Source of the DNA: Candidatus Peregrinibacteria bacterium
GTDB taxonomy: Bacteria; Patescibacteriota; Gracilibacteria; UBA1369; LOWO2-01-FULL-3
Reading direction: 5' to 3'
Assembly: GCA_026395515.1 (NCBI GenBank)
Contig: JAPLYN010000006.1
Location: forward strand, 12,844 to 76,843
Length of the DNA stretch: 64,000 bases
The translations under genes and the position numbers were made by a program. The notes under the pieces were generated by a model. It made no database searches. It was given only the letters and a program-made list of their open reading frames with translations, and was not told the origin of the DNA. Shown piece after piece: positions 13,497-53,523 of the stretch (within the stretch, counting starts at the first letter, position 1; each line of letters begins with the position of its first letter).

Positions 13497-13545
13497 GATA
13501 TAAAATAGAGTTTTGCGAAACAAAATACATTATCCCCTACAACTT

Positions 13546-14175
13546 ATGGATCTCATTTTGTTTGGAATGCAAGGCGCAGGCAAAGGTACTATTGGTAAAT
13601 CTTTAGCCGAAAGATACAACCTTAAGATTTTTGAAACGGGTGGAGCTCTCCGCGCACTTTCCCAAGAAGATAGTGAACTTGCTCGTAAAGTAAAATCCAT
13701 CATCGAAGCCGGACATCTTGTTCCGAATGAAGTAGTAATGGAAATCGTAGAAGACTTTTTAGCAAAACTTCCACCAAACACTAATGTCCTTTTTGACGGT
13801 ATTCCAAGAAAAGTAGAACAGGCAGAGTCACTCAATGCCCTACTCAAAAAGAATGGCCGCACATACCGCGCCGTAATTTTAGACATCAAAGAAGAAATTG
13901 CACTCAAGAGACTTACTACTCGCAGACTTTGCAAAGTATGTAAGACAATTTATCCAATCACCTACACTGCCGACAAATGTACTTGTGGCGGTGAATTAAT
14001 TACTCGTTCTGACGACAATCCGGAAGCAATCCAAACTCGCCTCAAAGCTTACCGCGACGAAACTGTCCCAGCTATCGCTCTCTACCAAGAAGGCATGATC
14101 AAAATCGACGGCGAACCAGCCATCGACGAAGTTCAAAAGTTAGCATTTGAAGCGTTGGACAAGGTATTAAAATAA
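13546..14175 (+). CDS. adk: Adenylate kinase (zinc-lid type)
   Basis: MDLILFGMQGAGKGT P-loop at the ATG at 13546 (the track TTG at 13513 is probably upstream read-in). The lid carries CKVC...CTC. Confidence 0.93.
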   Translation: MDLILFGMQGAGKGTIGKSLAERYNLKIFETGGALRALSQEDSELARKVKSIIEAGHLVPNEVVMEIVEDFLAKLPPNTNVLFDGIPRKVEQAESLNALLKKNGRTYRAVILDIKEEIALKRLTTRRLCKVCKTIYPITYTADKCTCGGELITRSDDNPEAIQTRLKAYRDETVPAIALYQEGMIKIDGEPAIDEVQKLAFEALDKVLK

Positions 14176-27768: not shown

Positions 27769-28743
27769 TTAAAGAGCCGCCTCTAAATCTTTTTTCATTT
27801 CTAGAACAGCAGTTCTTGCCGCTTCAGCATAAGCATCAGGAAGCATTCCCATTTTTTCATATGCAAAAATAATTCCGCGGCTATTATTGATAAGCGCGCC
27901 AAAACCATCTTCATTAAAACAAGGCTTCACATCTTCTGCTCCAGCTCCTTGAGCACCATATCCTGGCACCAAGAAAATAGTATTTGGCATAATCTCGCGA
28001 AGTTTCTTTGCTTGCTCAGGAAAAGTCGCCCCAACCACCGCACCCACAAAGTTATAATTATTCTCCCCAATCTCATCAGCTCCCCAACTATCTACCAAAT
28101 GACCCACAATTTCATATAAAGCCTTACCAGGTCCTCCCTTATTATCCACATCTTGCATTATCAAATCCTGCAAATCTCCACTGCTCTTATTTGAAGTCTT
28201 CACGAGAACGAAAACTCCTTTTCCATATTTTTTGCATTCTTCCAAAAATGGCTTAATTCCATCCCAACCAAGATAAGGATTAATTGTAATACTATCCGCT
28301 TCAAAAATTGGCATCACCACTTCATTATCACCTTCAAAAATCTGCACCTCCCCAAGAAAAGCCTGAGCATAAGCTTCAGCCGTAGTTCCGATATCATTTC
28401 TTTTCGCATCAGCAATAGTGAGCAAGCCTTTTGATTTTGCATATCTCAATGTATCCACATAAGCCTTAACTCCATCTGCTCCATAAATTTCATAGAACGC
28501 AATTTGTGGCTTCACTACAGGCACAAGATCAAACACCGCATCAATAATTCCTTTATTAAATTCATACAAAGCCATCGCCGCAGCACCAGTCGGAGAAAGA
28601 TGCTGTCCATCATCATCCGTATATGCCAAAGCACGATTCACAATACTAGCTGGAATCTTATCCAAACGTGGATCAAGCCCCACACAAATAGCATTTCCCT
28701 TAGCCTTCACTGCTTCTATCAATTTGTCTGCAAAGTTTTTCAT
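27769..28743 (-). CDS. pyrF: Orotidine 5'-phosphate decarboxylase, long (type 2) form
   Basis: MKNFADKLIEAVKAKGNAICVGLDPRLDKIP..., 324 aa, last gene of the pyr operon. Confidence 0.88.
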   Translation of the reverse strand: MKNFADKLIEAVKAKGNAICVGLDPRLDKIPASIVNRALAYTDDDGQHLSPTGAAAMALYEFNKGIIDAVFDLVPVVKPQIAFYEIYGADGVKAYVDTLRYAKSKGLLTIADAKRNDIGTTAEAYAQAFLGEVQIFEGDNEVVMPIFEADSITINPYLGWDGIKPFLEECKKYGKGVFVLVKTSNKSSGDLQDLIMQDVDNKGGPGKALYEIVGHLVDSWGADEIGENNYNFVGAVVGATFPEQAKKLREIMPNTIFLVPGYGAQGAGAEDVKPCFNEDGFGALINNSRGIIFAYEKMGMLPDAYAEAARTAVLEMKKDLEAAL

Positions 28744-28763
28744 CTCGCTTTTTTTAAAATATA

Positions 28764-30155
28764 TTAACCAAACGGTTTATTAATCCAAACTACCGGTGCA
28801 CCCTTAGGATCATCAGGATTCAAATTTGTTCCATTCCTATGCATACGCCATTTATTACCTCCGTCGCCGCTGGCACAATCTGCAATCATTTTATCTTCAT
28901 CCTTCCAGCCCAAGAACATCGCACTATGTAATCCTCTCCAATATTGATTTCCATTATAATACCAAATCCAATCCCCTGGCTTCAAAATACTTTTCAACTG
29001 ATCAGGTTTTGCCTCATGTCCGCGATAATCACGACCGGAATAATGAGCCTGACCATTGAAAACCGTTCTTCCAATCGGCGAATTAAATCCCGCCATTCTT
29101 CTGATCTGCGCCACCCATTTTCCACAATCCGCAGCATGCTTAATTATATGACCTCTGTATTCATACGGTCCCTTAAATCCTTTCGGATATTTCTTCAAAG
29201 CAGCCGCAAACCCAATAGCAATCTCCACTAATTCTTTCACTTTAGGATTTTCGCCACATTTATCAATAATTCTCTTAATGTCTTCTTCGTCATATTCAGC
29301 AGAGAAATTCTTTCCACCTCTTTCCTTCAAAACTACATCATTTTCAACTAACTTATCCAAAAACTTTTTATCCTTATCAGCCTCTTCCGATTTATCATAA
29401 GCCGCATAGTCTAATTCTTTATTCCCATCTTTATCAGTCTTCGAAAATTTATCTTCAAAAGATTTATCCACACCACCGATCAACACTTCATCCCCAGTAA
29501 AAATCGGCATATACCCAGCATTATCAAAGAATCCATTTCCGGAATTCCCTTTAGCATTTCCGCTTCCAATATCAGCATTTCCTTTCAATCCCAATCTACG
29601 TGTACTGGTCCTCTGCATATCCTTAGTATTTTTTCCTCTATAATCCAAAGGATAAACTGTAATTTTTCTCACTGCAGCCGGCATCAAATCTCCCGCACCA
29701 ATTCTATCATAGGCTTCATTATTTCCATGAAAATCAATCTTCAATCTAAGCCCTTCAACTGGCTTTTTATATAATTCCCATTTTGCAAAATCTATTTTTT
29801 CTTTTGAGCCAACCACATCTGTAAAAGCATACAATAAAATTCCAGGATAAGCTTTCTCCAACTTCATCAAAGCCCTCACGCTCAATTGCTCAAGATCCAC
29901 TTTTTCCGCTCCATCCAAAACCTCCTTCAATTTCGGCAAATTATTAATATTTTTCTCAATAAGAGTTTTCCTATTCTGACTTTTCACAAGCTCCTTCGCA
30001 AAAGGATCAGCAATTTTTGCTCTTTCTTCTTTACCGGCAGCATCAATAGAACTTTTCTTTCTTTCAACTTTTCCCTCTTTTTTAACTTCAGACTTATCTT
30101 CACTCTTTTGCTCTACCTTGGCCTTTGGTGGTATTAACTTTTCTTTATCAGCCAT
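28764..30155 (-). CDS. Lys-rich protein with the shared unknown domain and a C-terminal NlpC/P60-like (papain-fold) putative cell-wall hydrolase domain
   Basis: C-terminal DCGKWV (candidate Cys) ... PGDWIWYY ... GLHSAMFLGW (candidate His), a pattern typical of NlpC/P60. The ORF is embedded between pyrE and pyrF with ~20-nt spacers. Confidence 0.5.
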   Translation of the reverse strand: MADKEKLIPPKAKVEQKSEDKSEVKKEGKVERKKSSIDAAGKEERAKIADPFAKELVKSQNRKTLIEKNINNLPKLKEVLDGAEKVDLEQLSVRALMKLEKAYPGILLYAFTDVVGSKEKIDFAKWELYKKPVEGLRLKIDFHGNNEAYDRIGAGDLMPAAVRKITVYPLDYRGKNTKDMQRTSTRRLGLKGNADIGSGNAKGNSGNGFFDNAGYMPIFTGDEVLIGGVDKSFEDKFSKTDKDGNKELDYAAYDKSEEADKDKKFLDKLVENDVVLKERGGKNFSAEYDEEDIKRIIDKCGENPKVKELVEIAIGFAAALKKYPKGFKGPYEYRGHIIKHAADCGKWVAQIRRMAGFNSPIGRTVFNGQAHYSGRDYRGHEAKPDQLKSILKPGDWIWYYNGNQYWRGLHSAMFLGWKDEDKMIADCASGDGGNKWRMHRNGTNLNPDDPKGAPVVWINKPFG

Positions 30156-30174
30156 AGAAATTCATTACAAGATA

Positions 30175-30840
30175 TTAGATGCCAAATTCTGCTCTGTAAA
30201 TTTTTATCTTTTCCATCATCGCTTCATCTATATACACCTGGCCGTTCACTTCTTTTCCATACAAAGACTCAATCACCTCATCTAGAGTCACAATTGAGAA
30301 GACTTTAACTCCGAGTTTCTCAATTTCCTCCAAAGCATTCTTCCCTTCATTATTTTTTTCCATTCTATTCATCGCAATCAACACTCCAAGAACTTTCGGA
30401 TTTCCATTAGTTTTCAAAAGTTCCAAAGTCTCGCGAATTGCCGTACCAGCTGTAATCACATCATCAATCAAAAGCACTTTTGTCTCCGCCCCAAGAGGAG
30501 CTCCCACCAACAATTTTCCTTCTCCGTGATCCTTCATTTCTTTACGATTAAAAGTAAAAGAAACTTCTTTTTTGAACTCGGAATGCAGCACTGCTGTCGT
30601 TACTACCGACAGAGGAATTCCCTTATAAGCAGGCCCGAAAATCACTTCCGCTTCTACGCCAGAATCGATAAATGCCTGAGCATAAGCTCTAGCTAATTCG
30701 CTAATTAATTCACCAGTATAAAAGCTTCCAACGTTCAAAAAGTAAGGAGCTTTTCTTCCACTTTTCAAAGTAAATTCTCCAAACTTCAAAGCCTGAGCCT
30801 TCACCAAAAGTTCTATAAAATCTTTTTTATACTGCTTCAT
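30175..30840 (-). CDS. pyrE: Orotate phosphoribosyltransferase
   Basis: 221 aa with a PRPP-binding motif (KVLLIDDVITAGTA). Confidence 0.92.
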   Translation of the reverse strand: MKQYKKDFIELLVKAQALKFGEFTLKSGRKAPYFLNVGSFYTGELISELARAYAQAFIDSGVEAEVIFGPAYKGIPLSVVTTAVLHSEFKKEVSFTFNRKEMKDHGEGKLLVGAPLGAETKVLLIDDVITAGTAIRETLELLKTNGNPKVLGVLIAMNRMEKNNEGKNALEEIEKLGVKVFSIVTLDEVIESLYGKEVNGQVYIDEAMMEKIKIYRAEFGI

Positions 30841-30843
30841 AAA

Positions 30844-31680
30844 TTACTTCGCCAATGGCTTAAAGAAATAATGTTTGCGGCCCTGAGCATCACGATGATA
30901 TTGCCCCATTTCAGGCAATTTCTTGAGATAACTCCACTTCATCACCGGACCTTTTTTACAGCAGAGATCACCTTTATCATCTATCGCACACTGTCCACAA
31001 ACTCCGATTCCGCACTTCATATATTTTTCCATCGACATATAAGCTTCCACTCCATGTTTTTCGGCCACTTGTCCCACCACTTTCATCATAACTTCCGGAC
31101 CACAAGTAAACACCTGATTAATTTTCTTTTCATCCATTACTTTATCCAAAACTTGAGTAATATATCCTTTAAATCCAGCTGAACCATCATCTGTAGAAAT
31201 ATGTAAATCAACTCCTAGTCCCAAAATTTTCTGACCATATAAAAGTAAATCCTTATTTCTCGCACCAATCAAAAACTCCACCTTACACTTCGCTTTTACC
31301 GCTTCATGAGCCACAAAATACATAGGCGCTGCACCATATCCACCAGCCACAAGAGCCAAATGTTCGCCAGCTTTAAATTTATAATGAGTTCCAAGTGGTC
31401 CACGCACTCCAACCTTATCCCCCACCTTTAATTCATGCATTTTTTGAGAAAAAGGCCCAACGGCACATATCGTCACCCAAAGTTCTTTTCCATCATCAAA
31501 GGCAATAGACATCGGCTTTTCATCAAAACCCGGAATCCACATCATGAGGAACTGCCCCGGCTTACCACCAATACTCGATTCAAATACAAAAGTCTTCGTC
31601 ATCTCGTTCTCCTGCACGATCTTGGCAATCGATAAGATCTCAAATCTTGAATCAAATTTTTTAATATTCATAGTTCTCAA
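30844..31680 (-). CDS. pyrK: Dihydroorotate dehydrogenase electron-transfer subunit
   Basis: FNR-like fold with a C-terminal 2Fe-2S cysteine cluster (CGIGVCGQCAI..LCC), adjacent to pyrD. Confidence 0.88.
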   Translation of the reverse strand: MRTMNIKKFDSRFEILSIAKIVQENEMTKTFVFESSIGGKPGQFLMMWIPGFDEKPMSIAFDDGKELWVTICAVGPFSQKMHELKVGDKVGVRGPLGTHYKFKAGEHLALVAGGYGAAPMYFVAHEAVKAKCKVEFLIGARNKDLLLYGQKILGLGVDLHISTDDGSAGFKGYITQVLDKVMDEKKINQVFTCGPEVMMKVVGQVAEKHGVEAYMSMEKYMKCGIGVCGQCAIDDKGDLCCKKGPVMKWSYLKKLPEMGQYHRDAQGRKHYFFKPLAK

Positions 31681-32598
31681 TTAATTGTGTACGCAGCCAA
31701 TAATCTCTTCCAAATCCTTCACGCCATTTTTATCGCACCACTCAGCCATTTCTTTGGCTACTTTGCCGAAGCCTTCAGCCCCACGATAGTAAACCATCGT
31801 TCCCATTCCCACTAGTGTCGCACCCGCCATCATAATTTCAATTGCATCCTCACCAGTCATAATTCCTCCAGTTCCAATTATCGGTAATTTTGTCGCTTTA
31901 TACACTTCATAAACCGCTTTCACCGCCGCCGGTTTAATTCCCGGACCGGACAATCCACCAGATTTATTTGTCAGAATAGGACGACGCACATTGATATCAA
32001 TTCCCATTCCATAAAGCGTATTGATCGCACAGAATCCATCCGCACCGGCATCCGCACAAGCCTTAGCAATTTCACCAATATTGAAAACGTTCGGAGTCAG
32101 CTTAATAATTATCGGTTTATTCGTCCTCGCCCTCACTGCCCGAGTCACTGCCGCCGCATCACCCGCCACACAAGCAAATGGCTTACCGTGGCTATCTTCC
32201 ACATTAGGACAAGCAATATTTACTTCAATAATATCTGGATCACATTTTGTAATTTCTTCAGCAAGCACACCAAAATCTTCAATACTTCCCGCCACAATAT
32301 TCGCAATAATCGGACCTGGTTTTCTTTTATTATATTCCGGGAAAGTCTCCTGAGCCGCCTTCTCCATTCCGGCATCAGAAAGCCCTACAGCATTGAGAAA
32401 ATAATTTTCTGTTCCATACATTGTAGGATTTTTATGTCCCACATTTTCCTTCAACCAAATTGATTTTGTCGTCACACCACCTGCACCTTTCCTAATCACG
32501 CTTTTTAAACTACTAGCAGTCACACCCAAAATTCCGGAAGCGAGCACCGTCGGATTCTTGAATTTCACTCCACAAAAATTTACTTCTAGATTTGCCAT
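31681..32598 (-). CDS. pyrD: Dihydroorotate dehydrogenase 1B, catalytic subunit
   Basis: MANLEVNFCGVKFKNPTVLASG...GG.SGP.IKP......IIGTGGI..G.DA.E. Confidence 0.93.
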   Translation of the reverse strand: MANLEVNFCGVKFKNPTVLASGILGVTASSLKSVIRKGAGGVTTKSIWLKENVGHKNPTMYGTENYFLNAVGLSDAGMEKAAQETFPEYNKRKPGPIIANIVAGSIEDFGVLAEEITKCDPDIIEVNIACPNVEDSHGKPFACVAGDAAAVTRAVRARTNKPIIIKLTPNVFNIGEIAKACADAGADGFCAINTLYGMGIDINVRRPILTNKSGGLSGPGIKPAAVKAVYEVYKATKLPIIGTGGIMTGEDAIEIMMAGATLVGMGTMVYYRGAEGFGKVAKEMAEWCDKNGVKDLEEIIGCVHN

Positions 32599-32604
32599 AA
32601 TTCT

Positions 32605-33990
32605 TTATTTAACAGGTTCAAACTCCACTTCCTTACCTACCTTTTTTCCAACAATCTTTCCGTTCTTATAAACTAATTCTCCGTTCACAAATGTCATAAT
32701 CGGACAGCCTTTGAAAGTGCTGCCAGCATACGGTGACCACTTACATTTTGTAAACAATTTTTCATTTTTTACTTCAAACATTTTTTCCATATCCACCACC
32801 ACTAAGTCCGCATCAAATCCAGCCTCAACTTGTCCTTTATTCTTCATACCAAAAATTTTCGCCGGACTTTCACAACACAATTTCACCACTTCTTTCATCT
32901 CCAATCCTCCATCATTTACAGCATTCAATAAAATCGGCAACAAAGTATCAAGCTCCGGAATTCCAGATGGAACATCCATATATTCCTGCTCTTTCTCTAC
33001 CAAAGTATGAGGCGCATGATCAGTCGCAATAATATGAACTTCCCCAAATTTCAAAGCCTTCCACATCGTAAACAAATCCATCTTACTTCTCACCGGTGGA
33101 TTCACCTTTATCAAATTTCCAAAAGTCGCGTAATCATCATCAGAAAGCAATAAATGATGCGGCGCCACTTCACAAGTAATGCGTGGCTGACCAGCTTCAT
33201 CCAAATTCTGATATTCCAATAACATCGTTAATTCCTGATCGCTAGACACATGAGCAACATGCAATCTCTTACCATTCTCTTTCGCCAATTCACAAAGAAA
33301 TTTCACCGCACTTACCGCACAATCAGCAGATCTTATTTTTGAATGAACAGACGGATCAATCACCGCTTCTTTCGGCACAATAAGTTTTCCATCATCATCA
33401 ATTCTTGCACCATATTCCGCCAAATATTCTAAAGCTTTTTCTTTAATCATTCCTTCATCCTCTGCATGAGCCACAATAAACTTATTACACTTCTTAAAAA
33501 GCTCGGCAATAGTCTCAGTTCCCACACCCATATTTCCTGTCGAATTAGCCACATAAACTTTCACCGCAGGAATATTTTCAGCCTTATTTATTTCGCTAAT
33601 ATTCTTGCCGTCAAAACCCATGTACAAGCCATAATTACAATATGCTTTCTTCGCCACTAATTTTCTTTTTTCTTCCAAATCTTTCACCGTCAAAATCGGC
33701 GGAACATTATTTGGCATGTCACAAATAGTCGTCACACCTCCAGCCACTGCGGCTTTAGTTCCAGTAGTCCAATCTTCTTTATATTTCTGGCCCGGCTCGC
33801 GCAAATGCACATGCACATCAATAAGCCCAGGCAAAATAATTTTTCCCTTACAATCTATAGTCTCATCCACTTCATGTTTCTGTCCCCAATCAAAAGTATT
33901 CACAATTTTTCCATCTTCAATAAGAACGTCAGCATCGTACACGCCTAGCGCGCATCCGACCTGCCCATTTTTTAGAAGAATTTTTGTCAT
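32605..33990 (-). CDS. pyrC: Dihydroorotase
   Basis: ..LPGLIDVHVHLREPG... amidohydrolase metal motif, 461 aa, between pyrB and pyrD. Confidence 0.9.
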   Translation of the reverse strand: MTKILLKNGQVGCALGVYDADVLIEDGKIVNTFDWGQKHEVDETIDCKGKIILPGLIDVHVHLREPGQKYKEDWTTGTKAAVAGGVTTICDMPNNVPPILTVKDLEEKRKLVAKKAYCNYGLYMGFDGKNISEINKAENIPAVKVYVANSTGNMGVGTETIAELFKKCNKFIVAHAEDEGMIKEKALEYLAEYGARIDDDGKLIVPKEAVIDPSVHSKIRSADCAVSAVKFLCELAKENGKRLHVAHVSSDQELTMLLEYQNLDEAGQPRITCEVAPHHLLLSDDDYATFGNLIKVNPPVRSKMDLFTMWKALKFGEVHIIATDHAPHTLVEKEQEYMDVPSGIPELDTLLPILLNAVNDGGLEMKEVVKLCCESPAKIFGMKNKGQVEAGFDADLVVVDMEKMFEVKNEKLFTKCKWSPYAGSTFKGCPIMTFVNGELVYKNGKIVGKKVGKEVEFEPVK

Positions 33991-33992
33991 AA

Positions 33993-34910
33993 TTAACCTT
34001 TAATCACTTTTTTCAAAAGCGCCATCCTAATCGCCACACCATTTCCCACCTGATGAAAATATCTCGCTCTTGGATCTGCATCCACTTCAACCGCTATATC
34101 TTCCACTCTTGGCAAAGGCTGCAATACAATCGCATGTTTCTTAGCTTTCTTCATAAGAGCAGCATCCACCACAAACACTCCAACAAATTTCTTATATTCC
34201 CTATCGCTCACAAATCTTTCTTTTTGAATTCTGCTAACGCTAATCACATCCACTTCTTTCACCATCTCTTCTGGAGTCGCCACTACTTTCGCGCTCGCTC
34301 CCATCTCCTTAAAAATCTCACTCGGCATCTCCAATCCTTTAGGAGAAACCAAGACGAATTTTACTTTAAAGTGTTTCAACAAACCAAATTGTGAATGTTG
34401 TACTCGGCTATTTTTCAAATCTCCAATCATTCCAATAGTAAGTCCATCAATCTTTCCGAATTCCTTCCAAATCGTATAGAGATCAAGCAAAGCCTGAGTC
34501 GGATGTTCATTCGAACCATCTCCAGCATTTATCACGGGCACGTCACTATACTTAGCGAGAATCGCCACAGAGCCAGGTTCCGGATGTCTCATTGCAATCA
34601 CATTCGCAATCTGTGAAACCACTTTTCCAGTATCTTCCAAGGTTTCCAATTTTCTCACTGAAGAAGTCTGCATCATGTCTGCATTGCTTACCACTCTTCC
34701 TCCAAGTCTTAACATCGCCGCTTCAAAACTAAATCTCGTTCTAGTCGAAGGCTCATAAAAAAGTGTCGCCATAATTTTTCCTTCCATCTCTTTTCCAAAC
34801 TTTCCACTCTTCACCAATTTCTCCATTTTTTTGGCTTCAGCAAACAAACTTAGCAATCCTTCCTTATCGAATTGCTGAGTAGACAAGATGTTTTGGCCTT
34901 TGAATTTCAT
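33993..34910 (-). CDS. pyrB: Aspartate carbamoyltransferase catalytic subunit
   Basis: ..FYEPSTRTRFSFE...HPTQALLD... Confidence 0.94.
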   Translation of the reverse strand: MKFKGQNILSTQQFDKEGLLSLFAEAKKMEKLVKSGKFGKEMEGKIMATLFYEPSTRTRFSFEAAMLRLGGRVVSNADMMQTSSVRKLETLEDTGKVVSQIANVIAMRHPEPGSVAILAKYSDVPVINAGDGSNEHPTQALLDLYTIWKEFGKIDGLTIGMIGDLKNSRVQHSQFGLLKHFKVKFVLVSPKGLEMPSEIFKEMGASAKVVATPEEMVKEVDVISVSRIQKERFVSDREYKKFVGVFVVDAALMKKAKKHAIVLQPLPRVEDIAVEVDADPRARYFHQVGNGVAIRMALLKKVIKG

Positions 34911-46373: not shown

Positions 46374-47744
46374 CTATTTTCCCATCACTAGATCAGTGAT
46401 TCCGGAAAAATCGGCAAGCAATTTAACATTCAAAGTAATAATAATTACGGCCACGACCCACGCCAAAATTTTAATCCAAAGCTTATTAGCGAATTGGCCC
46501 ATTTTTCTCTTATCACTGGTAAAAATAATCAACGGCACAATTGCAAAAGGCAACTGCAAGCTAAGAATAACTTGGCTTAAAATAAGTAATTTAGCCGTCC
46601 CACTTTCACCATAAATAACAGTCACTAATACTGCAGGTATAATAGCAATCAACCTCGTAATTAAACGACGCAACCAAGGAGGCAAACGCAAATTCAAGAA
46701 CCCTTCCATCACAATTTGACCTGCAAGCGTACCAGTAAGCGTAGAATTCTGCCCTGAAGCTAAAAGAGCTACCGCAAAAAGCGTACTTGCAATCCCCACC
46801 CCTAAGGTAGGAGTCAACAATTGATAAGCCTGCTGAATTTCCGCTACCTCATGCTGGCCACTCGTAAAGAATGCTGCAGCAGAAACAATTAAAATTGCCG
46901 CATTAATAAATAAGGCAAACATCAAAGCAACAGTAGAATCAATTGTAGCGAATTTAACAGCTTCCCTTTTACCTTCAGTATCCAATTCGTACTTACGAGT
47001 CTGAACGATAGAAGAGTGTAAATAAAGATTATGTGGCATTACTGTAGCACCCAAAATTCCAATTGCTATAAAAAGCATTTCTGGATTTTTAATAATATCA
47101 AAAGATGGAACGAATCCCGCAAGCACAGGACCAATAGCCGGATTTGAAAAAATAATTTCAGCAAAGAAACACGCACCAACAGTTAACACCAAAGCAACCA
47201 CAAGCGCCTCTATATATCTAAAGCCTTTATTTTGTAAAAACAAAACCAACAACACATCAAGAGATGTGATACACACACCCCAAACCAAAGGAATACCAAA
47301 AAGTAAATTCAAAGCTATAGCTGAACCAATAACCTCCGCCAAATCACACGCTGCAATTGCCAACTCACACAAAACCCACAAACCAAAAGCCACAGGCTTC
47401 GAATAATGATCACGACAAGCCTGAGCCAAATCCCTACCAGTCACAATACCCAATTTTGCAGACAACGACTGCAGCAAAATTGCCATAAGATTAGAAATGA
47501 GAATTACACTAAGCAAAGTGTAACCAAAAGCTGATCCTCCGGCTAAGTCTGTCGCCCAATTTCCAGGATCCATATACCCTACCGCAACCAAATAACCAGG
47601 ACCGGCAAAAGCAAACATTTTACGCCAAAATCCTACTCCTTTCGGTATATGAATAGTTCGATTTACTTCTGATAAACTTGGGTTTCCGCTTTGCAATCTC
47701 CACACCGGTTCATCAGCTGATTGAGATCTAAAAAAGTTCTTCAT
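46374..47744 (-). CDS. mntH: NRAMP-family divalent metal (Mn2+/Fe2+) transporter
   Basis: ..[24 protein letters not shown].., 456 aa polytopic. Confidence 0.93.
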
Positions 47745-47760
47745 TTTATCTTTAATGACT

Positions 47761-47784
47761 AAATGTTAGGCTACACTAACTTTA
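47761..47784. promoter_or_regulatory. DtxR/MntR-type operator candidate in the mntH-mntR divergent region
   Basis: AAATGTTAG-GCTACA-CTAACTTTA imperfect palindrome (GTTAG at 47765-47769, CTAAC at 47776-47780), resembling the TTAGG..CCTAA iron/manganese boxes. Confidence 0.45.
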
Positions 47785-47841
47785 TTAATACACCCTTACT
47801 TTCACCTTGTCAATATCGATACCTAGAGATATTATACTCCC

Positions 47842-48222
47842 ATGGAACAGGAAGACTATTTAGAGACGATATACAAGCTAACCCTAGAGCAAGGATTAGT
47901 TCGTATTTCTGATATTGCCAAGATTTTAAAACTCAGCAAACCATCAGTTACTCAGATGATGCAGCGCCTTGAAAAAGATGAATGCGTAATCTATAAACCA
48001 TACTTACCTCTCAAGCTAACGGTAAAAGGCAAAAAGATTGGGAAAAAAGTTGCTGAGAGACACGAAGTCCTCGCCGAATTATTAACAATTCTTGATATTC
48101 CGGAGAACATTCAGGAAAAAGATATTCACGGAATCGAGCACAGCCTAAGCCAAATAACCCTAGATCGCCTCCGTCAAACAGCCAAATTCCTCAAAGAGAA
48201 AAAATTCAAACCTAAGATTTGA
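47842..48222 (+). CDS. mntR: DtxR-family metal-dependent transcriptional regulator
   Basis: MEQEDYLETIYKL....G.VRISDIAKILKLSKPSVTQMMQRLEKDE.., 126 aa. Confidence 0.88.
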   Translation: MEQEDYLETIYKLTLEQGLVRISDIAKILKLSKPSVTQMMQRLEKDECVIYKPYLPLKLTVKGKKIGKKVAERHEVLAELLTILDIPENIQEKDIHGIEHSLSQITLDRLRQTAKFLKEKKFKPKI

Positions 48223-48254: not shown

Positions 48255-48308
48255 ATGAACGCAGCAAAAATTATTATCACGACTACTACAACCACTACAA
48301 TTATGTAG
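48255..48308 (+). CDS. thrL: Thr/Ile-rich leader peptide (17 aa)
   Basis: Hand translation gives MNAAKIIITTTTTTTIM*, with 7 consecutive Thr flanked by Ile. Confidence 0.8.
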   Translation: MNAAKIIITTTTTTTIM

Positions 48309-48335
48309 ATGGAGTCTTGGTAATACACTCATTAC

Positions 48336-48365
48336 ACCGACTCCAAAGTAGTCGGTTATTTTTTT
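48336..48365 (+). terminator. thr attenuator terminator
   Basis: ACCGACT-CCAAAGT-AGTCGGT then TATTTTTTT. The upstream GGAGTC (48311-48316) can pair with GACTCC (48339-48344) as an antiterminator. Confidence 0.8.
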
Positions 48366-48375
48366 ATTCAAAATT

Positions 48376-50181
48376 ATGGAAAATTCTCAAAAAATAGAGA
48401 TATGGACAGATACAGATGGACTAATGACAGCCAATCCTAGAAAAGTAAAAAAAGCCTTTCCTATCAAGGAAATAAGTTACATTGAAGCAATGGAAATGTG
48501 TCATTTCGGAGTAAAAATAATTCACCCAACAGTAATCCAAGAAGCCCAAAGAAAAAACATTCCAATAGTAATTAAAAACAGGCTAAATCCTGATTTCCCT
48601 GGAACAGTTATTAGCAAAAAAACTAATCACAATTTCATCATCCAGGGAATTTCCTCTATTTCAGACATAGCGCTTCTACGTTTACAAGGTAGTGGAATGG
48701 TAGGAGTACCGGGAGTTTCAAAAAGACTTTTTGGCGCACTTTCCAATGAAAAAATAAATATCATTTTAATCAGTCAGGCATCTTCCGAACACTCAATCTG
48801 CTTCGCCGTAGAACCAAATTCAGCCGAACAAGCAAAAAGCGCCATTGAATCAGAATTTTCAGAAGAAATAAAAAACAATCAGATAGATCCAGTCTTTATC
48901 GAAAAAAATCTTTCTATCATCGCCATCGTAGGCGAAAATATGCGCCACACACCTGGTATCTCCGCCAAACTATTTTCTGCTCTCGGAAAAAACGGCATCA
49001 ATATTTCCGCTATTGCTCAAGGATCCTCCGAGCTAAACATTTCCACAGTAATCTCAAAATCAGATGAAAATAAAGCTCTCAATGCCATTCATGATGCCTT
49101 CTTCCTCTCCGGCACAAAAACTTTAAATTTATTTTTCTTCGGCTGCGGACAAATTGGCAAAACAATACTCAAACAAATTTCAGAACAAAGTGAATTTCTT
49201 CAAAATGAAAAGCTTTTAGAAATGAAAATTACAGGTCTAGCGAATAGCAAAAAGATGATCTTATCAGAACAAGGAATTGACCTAAGCAATTGGCAAAATT
49301 CTCTAGAAAATGGTGATCCAAGCAATGCCGAATCCTTCACCGCAAAAATGATTAAACTCAATCTGCCAAATAGTGTTTTTATTGACTGCACAAGCAATGA
49401 AGAAATCACAAAGTTTTACGAAAAAATTCTCAAAGAAAGTATTTCTATTGTCACACCAAACAAAAAGGCTAATTCCCGCGACCTTAAAACTTATAAAAAA
49501 TTAAAAGAAGCAGCCAAAAAATCCAATATCAAATTTCTCTACGAAACAAACGTGGGAGCTGGATTACCAATCATCAATACACTACAAGATCTCCTCTACA
49601 GTGGAGATAAAATAATTAAAATCGAAGCAGTTCTATCAGGAACCCTCAGCTACATTTTCAATTCCTTCACCGGAGAAAAACCATTCAGTGAAATCGTCCT
49701 AGAAGCTCAAAAAAAAGGCTACACAGAACCAGATCCGCGCGATGACTTAAACGGTTTAGATGTCGCAAGAAAATTATTAATTCTCAGTCGCGAAATTGGA
49801 CTACCCCTAGAAATGGAAGATATTGAAGTCGAAAATTTAGTACCGGAAGATTGCAGACAAACATCAAACTTAGAAGATTTTTTTGCAAAACTTTCTACAC
49901 ATAATTATGACTACGCAGAAAAACTTTCCAAAGCAAAATCAGAAGAAAAACGTCTCTGCTACATCTCGAAAATAGAAAACAATAAAGCCAGCGTAAAACT
50001 TGAAACCATAAACAAAAATCATCCATTTAACAGCCTGTCGGGAAGCGACAACATAGTTTCATTCACGACCACACGCTACCTCGAAAGACCACTAGTAATT
50101 AAAGGCCCTGGAGCCGGAGCAGAAGTTACGGCCGCAGGAGTATTTGCAGATGTAATTAGAATAGCAAATTACCTCAACTAA
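48376..50181 (+). CDS. thrA: Homoserine dehydrogenase with ACT domains and only the C-terminal remnant of the aspartokinase domain (N-terminally truncated ThrA-like)
   Basis: It starts at ..EIWTDTDGLMTANPRKV..ISYIEAMEM.HFG.KIIHP.., which corresponds to around residue 225 of bifunctional AK-HSDH. ACT-like repeats follow, then GCGQIGKT NAD-binding and the HSDH catalytic domain. Confidence 0.8.
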   Translation: MENSQKIEIWTDTDGLMTANPRKVKKAFPIKEISYIEAMEMCHFGVKIIHPTVIQEAQRKNIPIVIKNRLNPDFPGTVISKKTNHNFIIQGISSISDIALLRLQGSGMVGVPGVSKRLFGALSNEKINIILISQASSEHSICFAVEPNSAEQAKSAIESEFSEEIKNNQIDPVFIEKNLSIIAIVGENMRHTPGISAKLFSALGKNGINISAIAQGSSELNISTVISKSDENKALNAIHDAFFLSGTKTLNLFFFGCGQIGKTILKQISEQSEFLQNEKLLEMKITGLANSKKMILSEQGIDLSNWQNSLENGDPSNAESFTAKMIKLNLPNSVFIDCTSNEEITKFYEKILKESISIVTPNKKANSRDLKTYKKLKEAAKKSNIKFLYETNVGAGLPIINTLQDLLYSGDKIIKIEAVLSGTLSYIFNSFTGEKPFSEIVLEAQKKGYTEPDPRDDLNGLDVARKLLILSREIGLPLEMEDIEVENLVPEDCRQTSNLEDFFAKLSTHNYDYAEKLSKAKSEEKRLCYISKIENNKASVKLETINKNHPFNSLSGSDNIVSFTTTRYLERPLVIKGPGAGAEVTAAGVFADVIRIANYLN

Positions 50182-50182
50182 C

Positions 50183-50857
50183 ATGAGAATCACAAAAAAT
50201 TCATTCGAAAACAAGCTAGCCAACAACGAACTTGTAATAAGTATAATTGGAATGTCCAACATAGGGAAAACCCATTGGTCAAAAAAATTAAAAGACTCAG
50301 ATTTTGAACACAAATGCTGTGACGATTTAATAGAAAAAATTCTCGAACCAGAGCTACAAGCTCTCGGATATAAAGGCTTGGCAGATTTAGCAAAATGGCT
50401 TGGCTATCCATATGAAGACAAATTCATGGTTAACCAACAACAATATATTCAACACGAATGTAACGTCATGGAAAACATTCTTAAAGAATTAGATAAAAGA
50501 AAAACTAAAAATATTACCATCGATACCACAGGAAGCGTAATCTATACCGGCGACTACATCTGCAAAAGACTAAAAGAAAAAAGCCTAATCATATTCATTG
50601 AATCAACTCCTCAAATGCAGACCGAAATGTTTCAGCGATTTCTGAGCAATCCTAAGCCAATAGTTTGGGCTCATAGTTTTACAAAAAAAGAGAAGGAGGA
50701 CAATATGGCAGCGCTCAAACGTTGCTACCCAGAGCTTTTAAAATATCGTACCAGCCAATACCGCAGACATGCAGACATCATTATCCCTTACAAAAGAATT
50801 GAACGAGATTTATCCTCAGAACAATTTTTAGAATTAATAAAAAGCTACCTACGATAA
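50183..50857 (+). CDS. P-loop kinase-like protein occupying the thrB position
   Basis: Walker A GMSNIGKT near the N-terminus, 224 aa. It is tightly packed between the thrA-like gene (1-nt gap) and thrC (1-nt gap). Confidence 0.6.
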   Translation: MRITKNSFENKLANNELVISIIGMSNIGKTHWSKKLKDSDFEHKCCDDLIEKILEPELQALGYKGLADLAKWLGYPYEDKFMVNQQQYIQHECNVMENILKELDKRKTKNITIDTTGSVIYTGDYICKRLKEKSLIIFIESTPQMQTEMFQRFLSNPKPIVWAHSFTKKEKEDNMAALKRCYPELLKYRTSQYRRHADIIIPYKRIERDLSSEQFLELIKSYLR

Positions 50858-50858
50858 T

Positions 50859-52178
50859 ATGAAATTATTCAGTACAAATAGAAAAGCAGATCCTAAATTT
50901 TTACCGCCACTAGCCACATTCGAAAAAGCTGTAATGCAAGGCCTTGCCGAAGATGGAGGACTTTTCATGCCTACGGAAATACCAACACTTCCAAAAGATT
51001 TCTTTGAAAAAATTTCAATCTTAAGCCTTCCAGAAATTTCTTTTGAAGTAGCGAAAACTTTACTACAAGAAGACATTCCAGAAAAAGATCTCAGAAAAAT
51101 AATAGATGAAAGCATTAATTTTGATGCACCTCTTAAGCAAGTCGTGGAAAATATATTTTCTTTAGAACTATTCCACGGCCCTACTCTCGCCTTCAAAGAT
51201 TTTGGCGCCAGATTTATGGCACGCATCATGTCGTATTTCATCAATAAATCTGACAAAAAAATCACCATAATAGTTGCGACATCTGGAGATACCGGAAGCG
51301 CTGTAGCAAGCGGCGTATACAATGTGCCGGGAATAAGAGTTTTTCTTCTTTATCCAAGTGGAAAAGTAAGCAAAATACAAGAACAACAACTCACCACCAT
51401 GGGCGGAAATATTCACGCTCTAGAAATTGATGGAACTTTCGATGATTGCCAAAGGTTAGTAAAAACTGCTTTCGTTGATAAAGAATTGAAAACTATTTTT
51501 GCCGAAAATAACGATTCTCTCGGTTCAGCCAATTCAATAAACATTGCCAGACTAATCCCCCAATCTTTTTATTATTTCTACGCTTATGCTCAATTGAAAA
51601 ACAAAGACTATGCAGTTTTCTCTATACCAAGCGGAAATCTTGGGAACTTAACTGCAGGATTAATTGCGAAAAAAATGGGACTCCCAATAAAAAAATTCAT
51701 CGCAGCAAATAATTCCAACAATTCATTCACGGAATATTTACACACAGGAAATTTCACAGCCAAAGCCTCAGTCACTACAATTTCCAATGCTATGGACGTA
51801 GGCAATCCCAGTAACTTCGTCCGCATCCTCGAACTCTACGAAAACAATTTAGAAAAAATTCGACAAGACATATCTTCTGCTGACTTTTCAGATGAAAAAA
51901 CTGCCGCAGCCATTAAAGAAGTTTATGAAAAATATCACTACACTATGGATCCCCACGGAGCTGTCGCCTATCTCGGATTAAAAACTTTCTCCCCTTGCGG
52001 AATATTTTTTGAGACAGCACATCCAGCAAAATTTCTAGATGTAGTTGAACCTATCATCGGAACAAAAATTCAAATCCCAGAACGCCTAGCTTCCTGTCTC
52101 ACTAAAACAAAAGTCACCACAAAACTATCCAAAGAATTCCAAGATTTTAAAAATTTTTTAGCCAAAAACGCTAAATAA
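50859..52178 (+). CDS. thrC: Threonine synthase
   Basis: ..GGLFMP..IP... and FHGPTLAFKDFG (PLP lysine), 439 aa. Confidence 0.93.
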   Translation: MKLFSTNRKADPKFLPPLATFEKAVMQGLAEDGGLFMPTEIPTLPKDFFEKISILSLPEISFEVAKTLLQEDIPEKDLRKIIDESINFDAPLKQVVENIFSLELFHGPTLAFKDFGARFMARIMSYFINKSDKKITIIVATSGDTGSAVASGVYNVPGIRVFLLYPSGKVSKIQEQQLTTMGGNIHALEIDGTFDDCQRLVKTAFVDKELKTIFAENNDSLGSANSINIARLIPQSFYYFYAYAQLKNKDYAVFSIPSGNLGNLTAGLIAKKMGLPIKKFIAANNSNNSFTEYLHTGNFTAKASVTTISNAMDVGNPSNFVRILELYENNLEKIRQDISSADFSDEKTAAAIKEVYEKYHYTMDPHGAVAYLGLKTFSPCGIFFETAHPAKFLDVVEPIIGTKIQIPERLASCLTKTKVTTKLSKEFQDFKNFLAKNAK

Positions 52179-52220: not shown

Positions 52221-52820
52221 ATGGCACACACACTTCCAGCCCTTCCATACGCTTACGATGCCTTGGAACCACATATAGACGCTCGTACAATGGAAATCCA
52301 CCACACTAAGCACCACCAAACATACGTTGATAAATTAAATGCTGCACTTTCAAAATATCCAGAGCTCGCTGACAAACCATTAGATGAACTTCTAAAAGAT
52401 CTAAATGTGGTTCCAGAAGATATTCGCACAGCAGTAAGAAATCACGGAGGAGGACACTACAATCACTCCATGTTTTGGAAAATAATGGCTCCAAATGCAG
52501 GAGGCCAACCATCTGGAAAACTTGCAGAAATGATTACAACAAAATTTGGTAGCTTTGATAAATTAAAAGAAGAATTCAATACAGCAGCTGCAAACAGATT
52601 TGGTAGTGGCTGGGCTTGGCTTTCAATCGATAAAACAGGCGCTCTAGTAGTAACATCTTCAGCAAATCAAGATTGTCCCCTATCAGATGGCCTAAAACCA
52701 ATTCTCTGTCTCGACGTTTGGGAACATGCCTACTATCTCAACTACCAAAATCGTCGTCCGGATTACATGAATGCTTGGTGGAATGTAGTAAGTTGGAGCG
52801 AAGTAGAAAAAGGAATATAA
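52221..52820 (+). CDS. sodA: Fe/Mn superoxide dismutase
   Basis: [31 protein letters not shown]...[16 protein letters not shown]. Confidence 0.95.
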
Positions 52821-52893
52821 ATTTTCCTCATCAATTTGCCAAAAACAGAATTGCTAGTAGAATAAAGAGCGATTATTAAATACTAATGACTAT

Positions 52894-53523
52894 ATGATTT
52901 ACGCACTTTTAATTCTAGCTGTTTTAGCAGTAATGGTTGTGAGCGTTTACAATGGAGTAATTACTCTAAAGAATAAAGTTGAAGAAGCTTGGGCAGATAT
53001 AGATACTCAACTCAAGAGACGTTATGATCTAATTCCAAATTTAGTTGAGACTGTAAAAGGTTATGCTGGACATGAAGCTCAAACTCTAGAAAAAGTTATT
53101 CAAGCTCGTAATAGTGCCATGAATGCAAAATCTCTTCCAGAGAAGGAAGCGGCTGAAAACATGATGACTGGAGCTTTGAAAACAATTTTTGCTTTATCCG
53201 AAAGCTATCCTGACTTGAAAGCAAATCAGAACTTTATGGATCTTCAAAATACTCTCAAAGAAATTGAAGAACATATTCAACTTTCTCGTCGTTATTACAA
53301 TGCTACAGTTCGTGATCTCAATACTAAGCTCGAAGTATTCCCAAATAACGTCATTGCTGGACCTCTAGGATTAAACAAAAAAGAATTCTTCCAAGCAAAC
53401 GAAGGAGAAAAAGAAAATGTTAAAGTAAGTTTCACTCCTGCAGCACCAGCGCCTACACCAGTTGCGCCATCTGCGCCTGCAACTCCTGCTGCTCCAACAA
53501 CACCAGAGCAACCAAAGCAATAA
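52894..53523 (+). CDS. lemA: LemA-family membrane protein
   Basis: N-terminal TM segment, ..AWADIDTQLKRRYDLIPNLVETVKGYA.HE...L..V..AR.., with a Pro/Ala-rich tail. Confidence 0.88.
   Translation: MIYALLILAVLAVMVVSVYNGVITLKNKVEEAWADIDTQLKRRYDLIPNLVETVKGYAGHEAQTLEKVIQARNSAMNAKSLPEKEAAENMMTGALKTIFALSESYPDLKANQNFMDLQNTLKEIEEHIQLSRRYYNATVRDLNTKLEVFPNNVIAGPLGLNKKEFFQANEGEKENVKVSFTPAAPAPTPVAPSAPATPAAPTTPEQPKQ

What the first reader, a model, noticed from the sequence alone, without database searches (positions are those of the whole stretch)
50183..50857. P-loop kinase in the thrB slot: possible non-orthologous homoserine kinase
Between the thrA-like gene and thrC, with 1-nt gaps on both sides and under the Thr attenuator, lies a 224-aa protein. 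It has an N-terminal Walker A (VISIIGMSNIGKT) and the size of shikimate/gluconate/adenylate-kinase-fold enzymes. A GHMP-family ThrB would be expected in this position. No GHMP motif (PxGSGLGSSA-like) occurs in it or anywhere in the window. Known ThrB substitutes are the ThrH type and the phosphoglycerate-mutase-like type, and neither is a P-loop kinase. The reverse swap is established in archaea, where shikimate kinase is a GHMP enzyme related to homoserine kinase. Operon context therefore suggests a new analogous homoserine kinase. Given the truncated aspartokinase, it could alternatively be a replacement for the aspartate-phosphorylating step.
Basis: inference. Interest (0 to 1): 0.7.

Follow-up and report, generated by a model that had tools for sequence, protein, structure and literature searches.

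The report
Shikimate-kinase-fold homoserine kinase in thr operon
The small P-loop kinase gene between the homoserine dehydrogenase and threonine synthase genes is almost certainly the organism's homoserine kinase; it belongs to a large family, usually mislabelled "shikimate kinase", that probably fills the missing threonine-pathway step in many uncultured bacteria.

Summary
A 224-aa ORF (50183-50857) with a Walker A motif lies 1 nt after a truncated thrA and 1 nt before thrC, downstream of a Thr-rich leader peptide and terminator.

The protein has a shikimate-kinase (SK) fold (AF2 pLDDT 94.9; top PDB matches are all SKs). It is not an SK by family thresholds, substrate-site residues or gene context.

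It belongs to a large family: at least 574 loci in GTDB species genomes and 432 clusters at 50% identity. In 59 of 83 sampled loci the kinase directly abuts a threonine-pathway gene, and in 51 of 83 that gene is thrC. It is fused to aspartokinase-homoserine dehydrogenase in both domain orders. Every step from aspartate to threonine is encoded in these operons except homoserine kinase.

An SK-related P-loop homoserine kinase is already proven experimentally (DvMF_0971 of Desulfovibrio vulgaris, Price 2018; NCBIfam NF040667). NF040667 was the top NCBIfam hit for all 61 members scanned, but at 27-50 bits against a 197-bit cutoff.

Verdict: homoserine kinase (confidence about 0.85). It is a new, widespread and unannotated variant of a known kind. 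The alternative that it replaces aspartokinase is not supported.

The parts
48255..48308 (+). Leader peptide ORF MNAAKIIITTTTTTTIM* (7 consecutive Thr codons and 4 Ile codons)
   Evidence: Read directly from the sequence. The Rfam Thr_leader model overlaps it but scores only 16 bits, E=1.3.
48310..48345 (+). Putative antiterminator: 48310-48316 pairs with 48339-48345, which overlaps the 5' arm of the terminator
   Evidence: RNA fold, MFE -27.7 kcal/mol, z = -4.65. The regulatory role is inferred.
48336..48366 (+). Intrinsic terminator: stem-loop 48336-48356 (ACCGACT..AGTCGGT) followed by the tail TATTTTTTTA
   Evidence: Terminator scan and the sequence itself.
48376..50181 (+). Truncated thrA: aspartokinase C-terminal remnant (about 70 aa), two ACT domains and homoserine dehydrogenase. 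The AK N-lobe is absent.
   Evidence: Pfam AA_kinase matches only profile positions 167-234 of 234, plus ACT_9 x2, NAD_binding_3 and Homoserine_dh. PRK09436 matches positions 220-815 of 819. L018 carries the same truncation.
50183..50857 (+). The finding: 224-aa kinase with a shikimate-kinase fold, predicted ATP:L-homoserine O-phosphotransferase
50249..50272 (+). Walker A / P-loop, G23-T30 (GMSNIGKT)
   Evidence: G28 and K29 are invariant in 350 homologs. Aligns with the AroK P-loop.
50321..50323 (+). D47, an invariant Asp equivalent to the hydroxyl-binding Asp of shikimate kinase (E. coli AroK D36)
   Evidence: hmmsearch and hhalign alignments; 99% conserved.
50396..50410 (+). W72-x-G74-x-P76, a family-specific invariant motif in the enlarged substrate-binding lobe (E92, at 50456-50458, is also invariant)
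   Evidence: AroK has no counterpart.
50522..50536 (+). D114-T-T-G-S118, which replaces the A-T-G-G-G motif of shikimate kinase. D114 lies at the end of strand beta-3, a Walker-B-like position.
50651..50659 (+). P157-K158-P159 in the LID loop, aligned with the 'K-R-P' of the AroK LID
   Evidence: The two alignments differ by one register.
50747..50749 (+). R189, an invariant Arg equivalent to the substrate-carboxylate-binding Arg of shikimate kinase (the R of the AroK 'NERNPLY' segment). Y193 is also conserved.
50859..52178 (+). thrC, threonine synthase, whose substrate is O-phospho-L-homoserine
   Evidence: TIGR00260 at 303 bits against a cutoff of 167; Pfam Thr_synth_N and PALP.

Best explanation
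The gene encodes an ATP-dependent L-homoserine kinase (EC 2.7.1.39) built on the shikimate-kinase / NMP-kinase P-loop fold instead of the GHMP fold. It would take the homoserine made by the upstream ACT-HSD protein, phosphorylate its gamma-hydroxyl, and pass O-phosphohomoserine to the downstream threonine synthase.

Shown here: the fold, the family, the gene context, the fusions and the conserved residues.

Inferred mechanism: the P-loop (G23-T30, with K29) holds the ATP phosphates. T30 and the invariant D114 at the end of beta-3 hold Mg2+. D47, equivalent to the acceptor-hydroxyl Asp of shikimate kinase, positions or deprotonates the homoserine hydroxyl. R189, and K158 of the LID loop, bind the substrate carboxylate and stabilise the transition state. 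The enlarged family-specific lobe (W72-x-G-x-P76 and E92), which lacks the second carboxylate-binding Arg of shikimate kinase, adapts the pocket to a small amino acid, and E92 is a candidate partner for the alpha-amino group.

Inferred regulation: in this genome the three tightly packed genes (1-nt gaps) appear to be controlled by a Thr/Ile leader-peptide attenuator, and the ACT domains of the truncated ThrA may provide allosteric control.
For: (1) Gene context. In 83 loci from different species, 59 have the kinase within 250 nt and on the same strand as a threonine-pathway gene, and in 51 that gene is thrC. asd sits immediately upstream in 17 loci, and hom or thrA is present in 30. The operons therefore encode AK, ASD, HSD and ThrC plus this kinase, and homoserine kinase is the only step without a gene.

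(2) Fusions in both domain orders. AK-ACT-HSD-kinase occurs as one ORF in L006, L007, L043 and P0126. Kinase-AK-ACT-HSD occurs in P0259.

(3) Closest curated model. NF040667, the model for the experimentally proven Desulfovibrio homoserine kinase, was the top hit for the window protein and for all 10 non-CPR members. All 51 alignment members matched it, whereas at most 17 of 51 matched any single shikimate kinase model. For the experimental proof see Price 2018.

(4) Fold. The AF2 model has pLDDT 94.9, the top Foldseek PDB matches are shikimate kinases (E about 1e-7), and hhalign against AroK gives Prob 96%.

(5) Substrate site differs from shikimate kinase. The Asp and the C-terminal Arg are kept. 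The Arg equivalent to AroK R60 is absent, and no basic residue is conserved between D47 and D114. GGG has become T-G-S, the substrate lobe carries two insertions, and new invariant residues W72, G74, P76 and E92 appear.

(6) No GHMP motif occurs in the window or in the 866 kb of related loci.

(7) A Thr-codon leader and terminator precede the operon.
Against: No biochemical or genetic test exists for any member of this family. The score against NF040667 is far below its cutoff (27.7 bits for the window protein, at most about 50 bits for any member, cutoff 197) and only slightly better than scores against true shikimate kinase models, so the functional transfer rests mainly on gene context.

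23 of 83 loci have no threonine-pathway gene within 6 kb. These include a seven-member clade labelled as archaeal. One locus (L041) has the order asd, kinase, aroD-like.

I could not confirm that a canonical thrB is absent from the complete genomes. The upstream ThrA lacks a functional aspartokinase, and the window contains no asd, so the source of aspartate semialdehyde or homoserine in this organism is unknown.
Confidence: 0.85

Rival explanations
1. It is a genuine, divergent shikimate kinase (AroK/AroL), as JGI and some NCBI records label it, and its position in the thr operon is incidental.
For: The fold and the best PDB matches are shikimate kinases. Pfam SKI matches 29 of 51 members weakly. 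Several sources name homologs 'shikimate kinase'. One locus (L041) has an aroD-like gene immediately downstream, and L029 has one 4.3 kb away.
Against: The window protein has no Pfam SKI hit at all, and no NCBIfam shikimate kinase model reaches E<=1 for it. The shikimate carboxylate-binding Arg (AroK R60) and the GGG motif are not conserved. Adjacency to thrC occurs in 51 of 83 loci, against 1 of 83 for aroD. The kinase is fused to AK-HSD in both domain orders. The invariant family-specific residues are also kept in the clades without thr context.
Confidence: 0.04
2. It replaces the lost aspartokinase activity of the truncated ThrA by phosphorylating aspartate, as the first reader suggested as an alternative.
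For: In the window and in L018 the AK N-lobe of ThrA is missing, and no other aspartokinase lies in the 64-kb window.
Against: The close relatives L004, L005 and L001, and most other loci, carry the same kinase next to a full-length AK-HSD. Several proteins fuse the kinase to a complete AK domain, so the family predates the truncation and is not redundant with aspartokinase. The conserved residues of the family are the same in genomes with the truncation and without it. From established enzymology, shikimate-kinase-fold enzymes phosphorylate hydroxyl groups, whereas aspartokinase forms an acyl phosphate using the amino-acid-kinase fold. This reading would also leave the operons with no homoserine kinase.
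Confidence: 0.03
3. It is a small-molecule kinase with another substrate linked to threonine metabolism (for example threonine, serine or 4-hydroxythreonine), or it has a regulatory role, and O-phosphohomoserine is supplied by an unidentified enzyme.
For: The substrate has not been measured. 23 of 83 loci lack thr context. thrB gaps elsewhere have been filled by unexpected enzyme families.
Against: The operon logic requires a producer of O-phosphohomoserine directly upstream of ThrC. Fusion to the homoserine-producing enzyme points to homoserine as the substrate. The closest curated model is a homoserine kinase.
Confidence: 0.06

Closest known systems
Desulfovibrio-type homoserine kinase (DvMF_0971 of D. 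vulgaris Miyazaki F; NCBIfam NF040667 'hom_kin_desulfo'; Price et al. 2018, PMC5764234)
   Same: Both are P-loop kinases related to shikimate kinase, and the proposed reaction and pathway role are the same. NF040667 was the best NCBIfam hit for the window protein and for all 10 non-CPR members, and all 51 alignment members matched it.
   Different: Scores are 27-50 bits against a 197-bit cutoff, so the window protein is not a member of that family as defined. The proteins here are about 200-224 aa against a 163-position model, with insertions in the substrate lobe and family-specific motifs (WxGxP, DTTGS, PKP, RCYxxLLxxR). The taxonomic range is different and much wider (CPR/Patescibacteria, Acidobacteriota and others). 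The family here is usually linked to thrC or fused to ThrA. I could not obtain Desulfovibrio sequences, so whether the two families had one origin or two is unresolved.
Shikimate kinase AroK/AroL (Pfam PF01202; e.g. PDB 1kag, 3trf, 1zyu)
   Same: Same fold (Foldseek E about 1e-7, TM-score normalised to the target 0.65-0.71; hhalign Prob 96%). Both have a P-loop, the acceptor-hydroxyl Asp (D47 aligns with AroK D36), a LID loop with a basic residue followed by Pro, and the C-terminal Arg-x3-Tyr.
   Different: The window protein has no SKI hit. The second substrate Arg is lost, GGG has become T-G-S, an invariant Asp (D114) replaces Ala, and the substrate lobe has 11-aa and 7-aa insertions plus an N-terminal helix. 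The gene context is threonine, not aromatic amino acid biosynthesis.
Canonical homoserine kinase ThrB (GHMP superfamily, KEGG K00872)
   Same: Same predicted reaction and the same operon slot (thrA-X-thrC, as in E. coli thrABC).
   Different: The fold is unrelated. There is no GHMP motif and no GHMP Pfam domain.
HomK / ThrB2 (TIGR02535, BT2402; phosphoglycerate-mutase-like) and ThrH (HAD phosphoserine:homoserine phosphotransferase)
   Same: Both are non-orthologous replacements for ThrB, and HomK/ThrB2 is likewise found inside thr operons.
   Different: They have different folds and probably use a phosphate donor other than ATP. The protein here is a Walker-A ATP-binding kinase with no Metalloenzyme or HAD domain.
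E. coli-type thr operon leader (thrL; Rfam RF00506)
   Same: A short leader ORF with a run of Thr and Ile codons is followed by a terminator, with mutually exclusive upstream pairings.
   Different: There is no significant similarity to the Rfam model (16 bits against a gathering score of 55). The leader is absent from the nearest relatives L004 and L018.

Membership tests
GHMP homoserine kinase (ThrB) | GHMP motif II (PxGSGLGSSA-like) and Pfam GHMP_kinases_N/C domains | tested here: not met
   No GHMP Pfam hit at E<=1. A regex scan found no motif in the protein, the window or 83 related loci.
Shikimate kinase (PF01202 / NCBIfam AroK, AroL equivalogs) | Score at or above the family threshold | tested here: not met
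   The window protein has no SKI hit at E<=1. No shikimate kinase NCBIfam model reaches E<=1 for it. Other family members hit the shikimate kinase models far below their cutoffs.
Shikimate kinase (PF01202 / NCBIfam AroK, AroL equivalogs) | P-loop NMP-kinase-like fold with a five-stranded parallel sheet and a LID loop | tested here: met
   AF2 pLDDT 94.9 with five beta-strands. The top 16 Foldseek PDB matches are shikimate kinases. hhalign Prob 96% against AroK.
Shikimate kinase (PF01202 / NCBIfam AroK, AroL equivalogs) | Shikimate-binding residues: Asp (MtSK D34), Arg (R58), GGG (79-81) and Arg (R136). The residue roles come from my own knowledge of the MtSK structures. | tested here: not met
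   The Asp and the C-terminal Arg are conserved (D47, R189). The R58 equivalent is absent, with no conserved basic residue between positions 48 and 113. GGG is replaced by T-G-S.
Shikimate kinase (PF01202 / NCBIfam AroK, AroL equivalogs) | Genomic association with aro genes | tested here: not met
   An aroD-like gene is adjacent in 1 of 83 loci, while thrC is adjacent in 51 of 83. No aro genes were found near the gene in the window.
Desulfovibrio-type homoserine kinase (NF040667) | HMM score at or above 197 bits | tested here: not met
   27.7 bits for the window protein. The best family member has E=1.5e-13, about 50 bits.
Desulfovibrio-type homoserine kinase (NF040667) | Closer to this model than to any other curated family | tested here: met
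   It was the top NCBIfam hit for the window protein and for all 10 non-CPR members, and all 51 alignment members matched it. The margin over shikimate kinase models is small for some members.
Desulfovibrio-type homoserine kinase (NF040667) | Homoserine kinase activity (complementation of thrB, threonine auxotrophy of mutants) | not testable with these tools
   Needs an experiment. The precedent is Price 2018.
HomK / ThrB2 (TIGR02535) | Cofactor-independent phosphoglycerate-mutase-like Metalloenzyme domain | tested here: not met
   No such Pfam or NCBIfam hit.
ThrH (HAD phosphotransferase) | HAD-superfamily domain | tested here: not met
   No HAD hit. The fold is P-loop.
Rfam Thr_leader (RF00506) | Covariance-model score at or above the gathering score of 55 bits | tested here: not met
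   16 bits, E=1.3. The functional features are present: a Thr-rich leader ORF, a terminator and alternative pairings.

The most novel reading that the evidence does not exclude
This family was recruited from a shikimate-kinase ancestor independently of the Desulfovibrio enzyme. It is the main homoserine kinase of CPR/Patescibacteria, Acidobacteriota (Terriglobia) and several other phyla, and so accounts for a good share of the thrB gaps that remain in pathway reconstructions. In reduced CPR genomes that keep only thrS-kinase-thrC, it supports a two-step salvage of exogenous homoserine to threonine.
Probability: 0.35. Interest if true: 0.65.

Novelty: new variant of a known kind. Interest (0 to 1): 0.55.

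Why it matters
According to the GapMind 2026 preprint, homoserine kinase is still one of the four steps that account for most unexplained gaps in amino-acid biosynthesis reconstructions: thrB is missing in 16 of 208 prototroph genomes.

This family is large, with at least 574 loci in GTDB species genomes and 432 clusters at 50% identity. Current resources label it "shikimate kinase" or "hypothetical". That creates two errors in metabolic models of CPR bacteria, Acidobacteriota and other groups: a false shikimate-pathway step, and a false threonine auxotrophy.

A single complementation experiment could reannotate hundreds of genomes. The family would also be a second example, possibly an independent one, of the shikimate-kinase fold being retooled for homoserine. 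That mirrors the archaeal case, where a GHMP enzyme serves as the shikimate kinase.

Tried and rejected
(1) I tried to obtain DvMF_0971-type sequences for a direct profile-profile comparison and a tree. None appeared among the listed hits, and the papers carry no sequences. Whether the two families had one origin or two therefore stays open.

(2) Sequence-only comparison of the single protein with the PDB gave nothing useful. Only the family profile and the predicted structure found the shikimate kinases.

(3) Rfam gave no significant family for the leader.

(4) I looked for a recurrent alternative context in the 23 loci without thr genes. The neighbours are miscellaneous: iPGM, MurB, Obg, an ABC permease, and FNR-like, TraB, Nth and DUF59 proteins. 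I rejected this as evidence for a second function, because the family-specific invariant residues are unchanged in those members.

(5) I considered that the truncated thrA might be an assembly artefact. I rejected this because L018, whose kinase is 71% identical, has the same truncation point, and P0129 starts in the same region.

(6) Literature searches for any earlier link between this family, or CPR bacteria, and homoserine kinase found none.

(7) Genome-wide absence of canonical thrB could not be tested, because only loci with flanks can be fetched, not whole genomes.

Full report
**Observation.** The ORF at 50183..50857 (+) is real and encodes 224 aa. It starts one base after the stop codon of the upstream gene and ends one base before the ATG of the downstream gene. 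The Walker A motif is G23-MSNI-G28-K29-T30.

The upstream gene (48376..50181, 601 aa) carries the last ~70 residues of an amino-acid-kinase domain, two ACT domains and a complete homoserine dehydrogenase. It matches the bifunctional AK/HSD profile PRK09436 only from position 220 to 815 of 819. The downstream gene is threonine synthase (TIGR00260, 303 bits against a cutoff of 167).

The surrounding genes are argG, argH, mntH (Nramp) and a DtxR/MntR-type repressor upstream, and sodA, lemA, a DUF2207 gene and uvrB downstream. The window has no GHMP motif, no second aspartokinase, no asd and no aroD-like gene. The only other kinase of this fold class in the window is adenylate kinase at 13513-14175.

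**Attenuator.** A leader ORF at 48255-48308 encodes MNAAKIIITTTTTTTIM*. A hairpin at 48336-48356 is followed by a T-run. In the predicted fold (MFE -27.7 kcal/mol, z = -4.65), the segment just after the leader stop codon (48310-48316) pairs with the 5' arm of the terminator. The Thr codons (48280-48287) pair with its 3' arm.

That layout fits classical attenuation. A ribosome stalled on the Thr codons would leave the antiterminator free to form. A ribosome that reaches the stop codon would cover the antiterminator, and the terminator would form instead. This mechanism is inferred. The Rfam Thr_leader model does not match significantly (16 bits, E=1.3).

**What the protein is.** Pfam gives nothing significant for the window protein. 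The best NCBIfam hit is NF040667, 'hom_kin_desulfo, homoserine kinase', at E=2e-6 and 27.7 bits, far below the 197-bit cutoff.

A search for homologs found 214 proteins with 92% to about 40% identity. Most come from CPR/Patescibacteria (Peregrinibacteria/Peribacteria, Levybacteria, Roizmanbacteria, Magasanikbacteria), and their sources call them 'shikimate kinase' or 'hypothetical'. An exhaustive profile search found 432 clusters at 50% identity with E<=1e-30. A scan of one genome per GTDB species found at least 574 loci. These also include genomes labelled Terriglobia/Acidobacteriota, SAR324, Nitrospinota, Chloroflexia and Verrucomicrobiota, and some labelled as archaea.

The AF2 model built from a 51-sequence alignment is very confident (pLDDT 94.9, pTM 0.90). 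It shows a five-stranded sheet with flanking helices. Its 16 best PDB matches are all shikimate kinases (E 1e-7 to 1e-5, TM-score normalised to the target 0.62-0.71), followed by adenylate kinases. The family profile finds E. coli AroK by sequence (E=9e-5), and hhalign gives 96% probability.

**Why it is not a shikimate kinase.** The alignments with AroK and conservation over 350 family members give the following picture.

- The P-loop is kept.
- The acceptor-hydroxyl Asp is kept (D47 aligns with AroK D36).
- The C-terminal R-x3-Y is kept (R189 and Y193).
- The Arg that binds the shikimate carboxylate (AroK R60, MtSK R58) has no counterpart. No basic residue is conserved anywhere between positions 48 and 113.
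- The GGG motif has become T-G-S, preceded by an invariant Asp (D114).
- The substrate-binding lobe has insertions of 11 and 7 residues and new invariant residues: W72, G74, P76 and E92.

All 51 alignment members matched NF040667, the window protein's top NCBIfam hit, and it was also the top hit for each of 10 further non-CPR members. At most 17 of 51 members matched any single shikimate kinase model. Scores stay between 27 and 50 bits. So this is a separate family whose nearest curated neighbour is the Desulfovibrio homoserine kinase. It is not a member of that family.

**Gene context.** I examined 83 loci from different species.

- In 60 loci a threonine-pathway gene lies within the 6 kb fetched on each side.
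- In 59 loci the kinase is within 250 nt and on the same strand as such a gene.
- In 51 loci that neighbour is thrC, nearly always immediately downstream. This count includes a divergent ThrC subtype, confirmed by TIGR00260 at 261 bits.
- In 17 loci asd (Pfam Semialdhyde_dh) sits directly upstream of the kinase, giving the order thrA-asd-kinase-thrC.
- In Roizmanbacteria-type genomes the order is thrS-kinase-thrC.

No GHMP motif occurs in the 866 kb of these loci. These operons therefore encode every step from aspartate to threonine except homoserine kinase, and they contain exactly one gene of unknown function, a kinase.

**Fusions.** In L006, L007 and L043 one ORF of about 1040 aa encodes AK-ACT-HSD-kinase, and Pfam confirms the domains for L007 and L043. 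In L016 and L066 the same continuous ORF runs off the contig end, so it is seen only in part. P0126 has the same architecture. P0259 has the opposite order, with the kinase at the N-terminus followed by full-length AK-ACT-HSD. Fusion in both orders to the enzyme that makes homoserine is strong evidence for a functional link. The C-terminal fusions lie in the same clade as the window protein, and every member of that clade with enough flanking sequence is linked to thr genes.

**Comparison with what is known.** That is out of date. Price et al. 2018 showed that DvMF_0971 of Desulfovibrio vulgaris Miyazaki F, annotated as a shikimate kinase and 27% identical to E. coli shikimate kinase II, is the homoserine kinase. 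Its mutants are rescued by threonine, and the gene complements E. coli thrB- (PMC5764234).

Other replacements are HomK/ThrB2 (phosphoglycerate-mutase-like and now confirmed by complementation) and ThrH. I found no paper that connects the present family, or CPR bacteria, with homoserine kinase. The GapMind 2026 preprint still lists thrB as missing in 16 of 208 prototroph genomes and speculates that other kinases fill the gap.

The finding is therefore a new, large, divergent and currently misannotated variant of a known kind. I could not retrieve Desulfovibrio sequences, so I could not decide whether it shares a homoserine-specific ancestor with the Desulfovibrio enzyme or was recruited independently from shikimate kinase.

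**The truncated ThrA and the aspartokinase alternative.** The truncation is real and inherited. L018, whose kinase is 71% identical, has a 606-aa ThrA starting at the same point (…EIWTNTDGLMTA…). The equally close relatives L004 and L005 have full-length ThrA (MKILKFGG…). P0129 begins in the same region and is fused to the kinase.

The same kinase, with the same conserved residues, sits beside or is fused to complete aspartokinase domains in most lineages. It therefore cannot have arisen as an aspartokinase replacement. Where this organism obtains aspartate semialdehyde or homoserine is unknown, because neither lysC nor asd is in the window.

**Caveats.**

- 23 of 83 loci have no thr genes nearby. 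Their neighbours are miscellaneous. Seven of them form a clade labelled Woesearchaeota or Methanosarcinales.
- One locus (L041) has the order asd, kinase, aroD-like (TIGR01093, 123 bits against a cutoff of 139).
- The invariant family-specific residues are retained in these members. This argues for the same chemistry, but a different substrate in some clades is not excluded.
- No member of the family has been tested experimentally.
- Whole-genome absence of canonical thrB could not be checked with the tools available.

**Verdict.** The gene most likely encodes a homoserine kinase with a shikimate-kinase fold (confidence about 0.85). It is of moderate to good interest because it would allow a whole family to be reannotated and because it is directly testable.

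Noticed in passing
window 48255-48366: A Thr/Ile leader-peptide attenuator (MNAAKIIITTTTTTTIM*, terminator hairpin and alternative pairings) lies in a Peregrinibacteria-like genome. The nearest relatives L004 and L018 lack it: their mntR gene abuts or overlaps thrA.
   Followed up: partly
window 48376-50181; L018 4179-5999; P0129: ThrA lacks the aspartokinase N-lobe but keeps two ACT domains and homoserine dehydrogenase. The truncation point is shared by a second species-level genome (L018), and P0129 starts in the same region. The window has no other aspartokinase and no asd, so the source of aspartate semialdehyde is unknown.
   Followed up: partly
L006 3535-6669, L007 3526-6669, L043 3544-6651 (also L016, L066, P0126); P0259: Single ORFs encode AK-ACT-HSD-kinase proteins of about 1040 aa. 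P0259 (1055 aa) has the reverse order, kinase-AK-ACT-HSD.
   Followed up: yes
L003, L032, L034, L035, L038: Roizmanbacteria-type operons have the order thrS-kinase-thrC with no hom, asd or aspartokinase within 6 kb. This suggests a two-step salvage of homoserine to threonine, as described for Trypanosoma brucei (PMC4460637 abstract).
   Followed up: partly
L041 4839-7334; L029 (about 4.3 kb downstream of the kinase): L041 has the order asd, kinase, aroD-like (type I 3-dehydroquinate dehydratase, just below the model cutoff). It is the only locus where a shikimate-pathway gene abuts the kinase. L029 has an aroD-like gene nearby.
   Followed up: partly
L020, L024, L028, L029, L031, L036, L042: These seven kinases form a clade from MAGs labelled Woesearchaeota or Methanosarcinales, with no thr genes nearby. 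Their conserved neighbours are FNR-like, TraB, endonuclease III and DUF59/FeS-assembly genes. Whether the labels are correct, and whether these genomes have thrC, is unknown.
   Followed up: partly
L033, L047, L053, L055, L068, L069, L073 and other Terriglobia loci: Genes that look like bioF, bioD and bioA lie directly upstream of kinase-thrC. This was judged by eye from the translations and not checked with profiles.
   Followed up: no
window 28001-34000: GC skew is strongly negative (-0.38 to -0.44) and AT skew slightly negative. The region coincides with a block of seven minus-strand genes (27769-34910) in a window otherwise dominated by plus-strand genes.
   Followed up: no
P0214, P0229, P0230, P0234, P0248, P0249, P0255, P0263, P0222, P0238: These family representatives have unexplained N-terminal extensions of 80-170 aa with no Pfam match. 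They could be miscalled start codons or an additional domain.
   Followed up: partly
window 46374-48222 and 52221-53523; L001: The thr operon is embedded between metal and oxidative-stress genes (mntH, mntR upstream; sodA, lemA downstream). The arrangement is syntenic with L001, whose kinase is only 47% identical.
   Followed up: no
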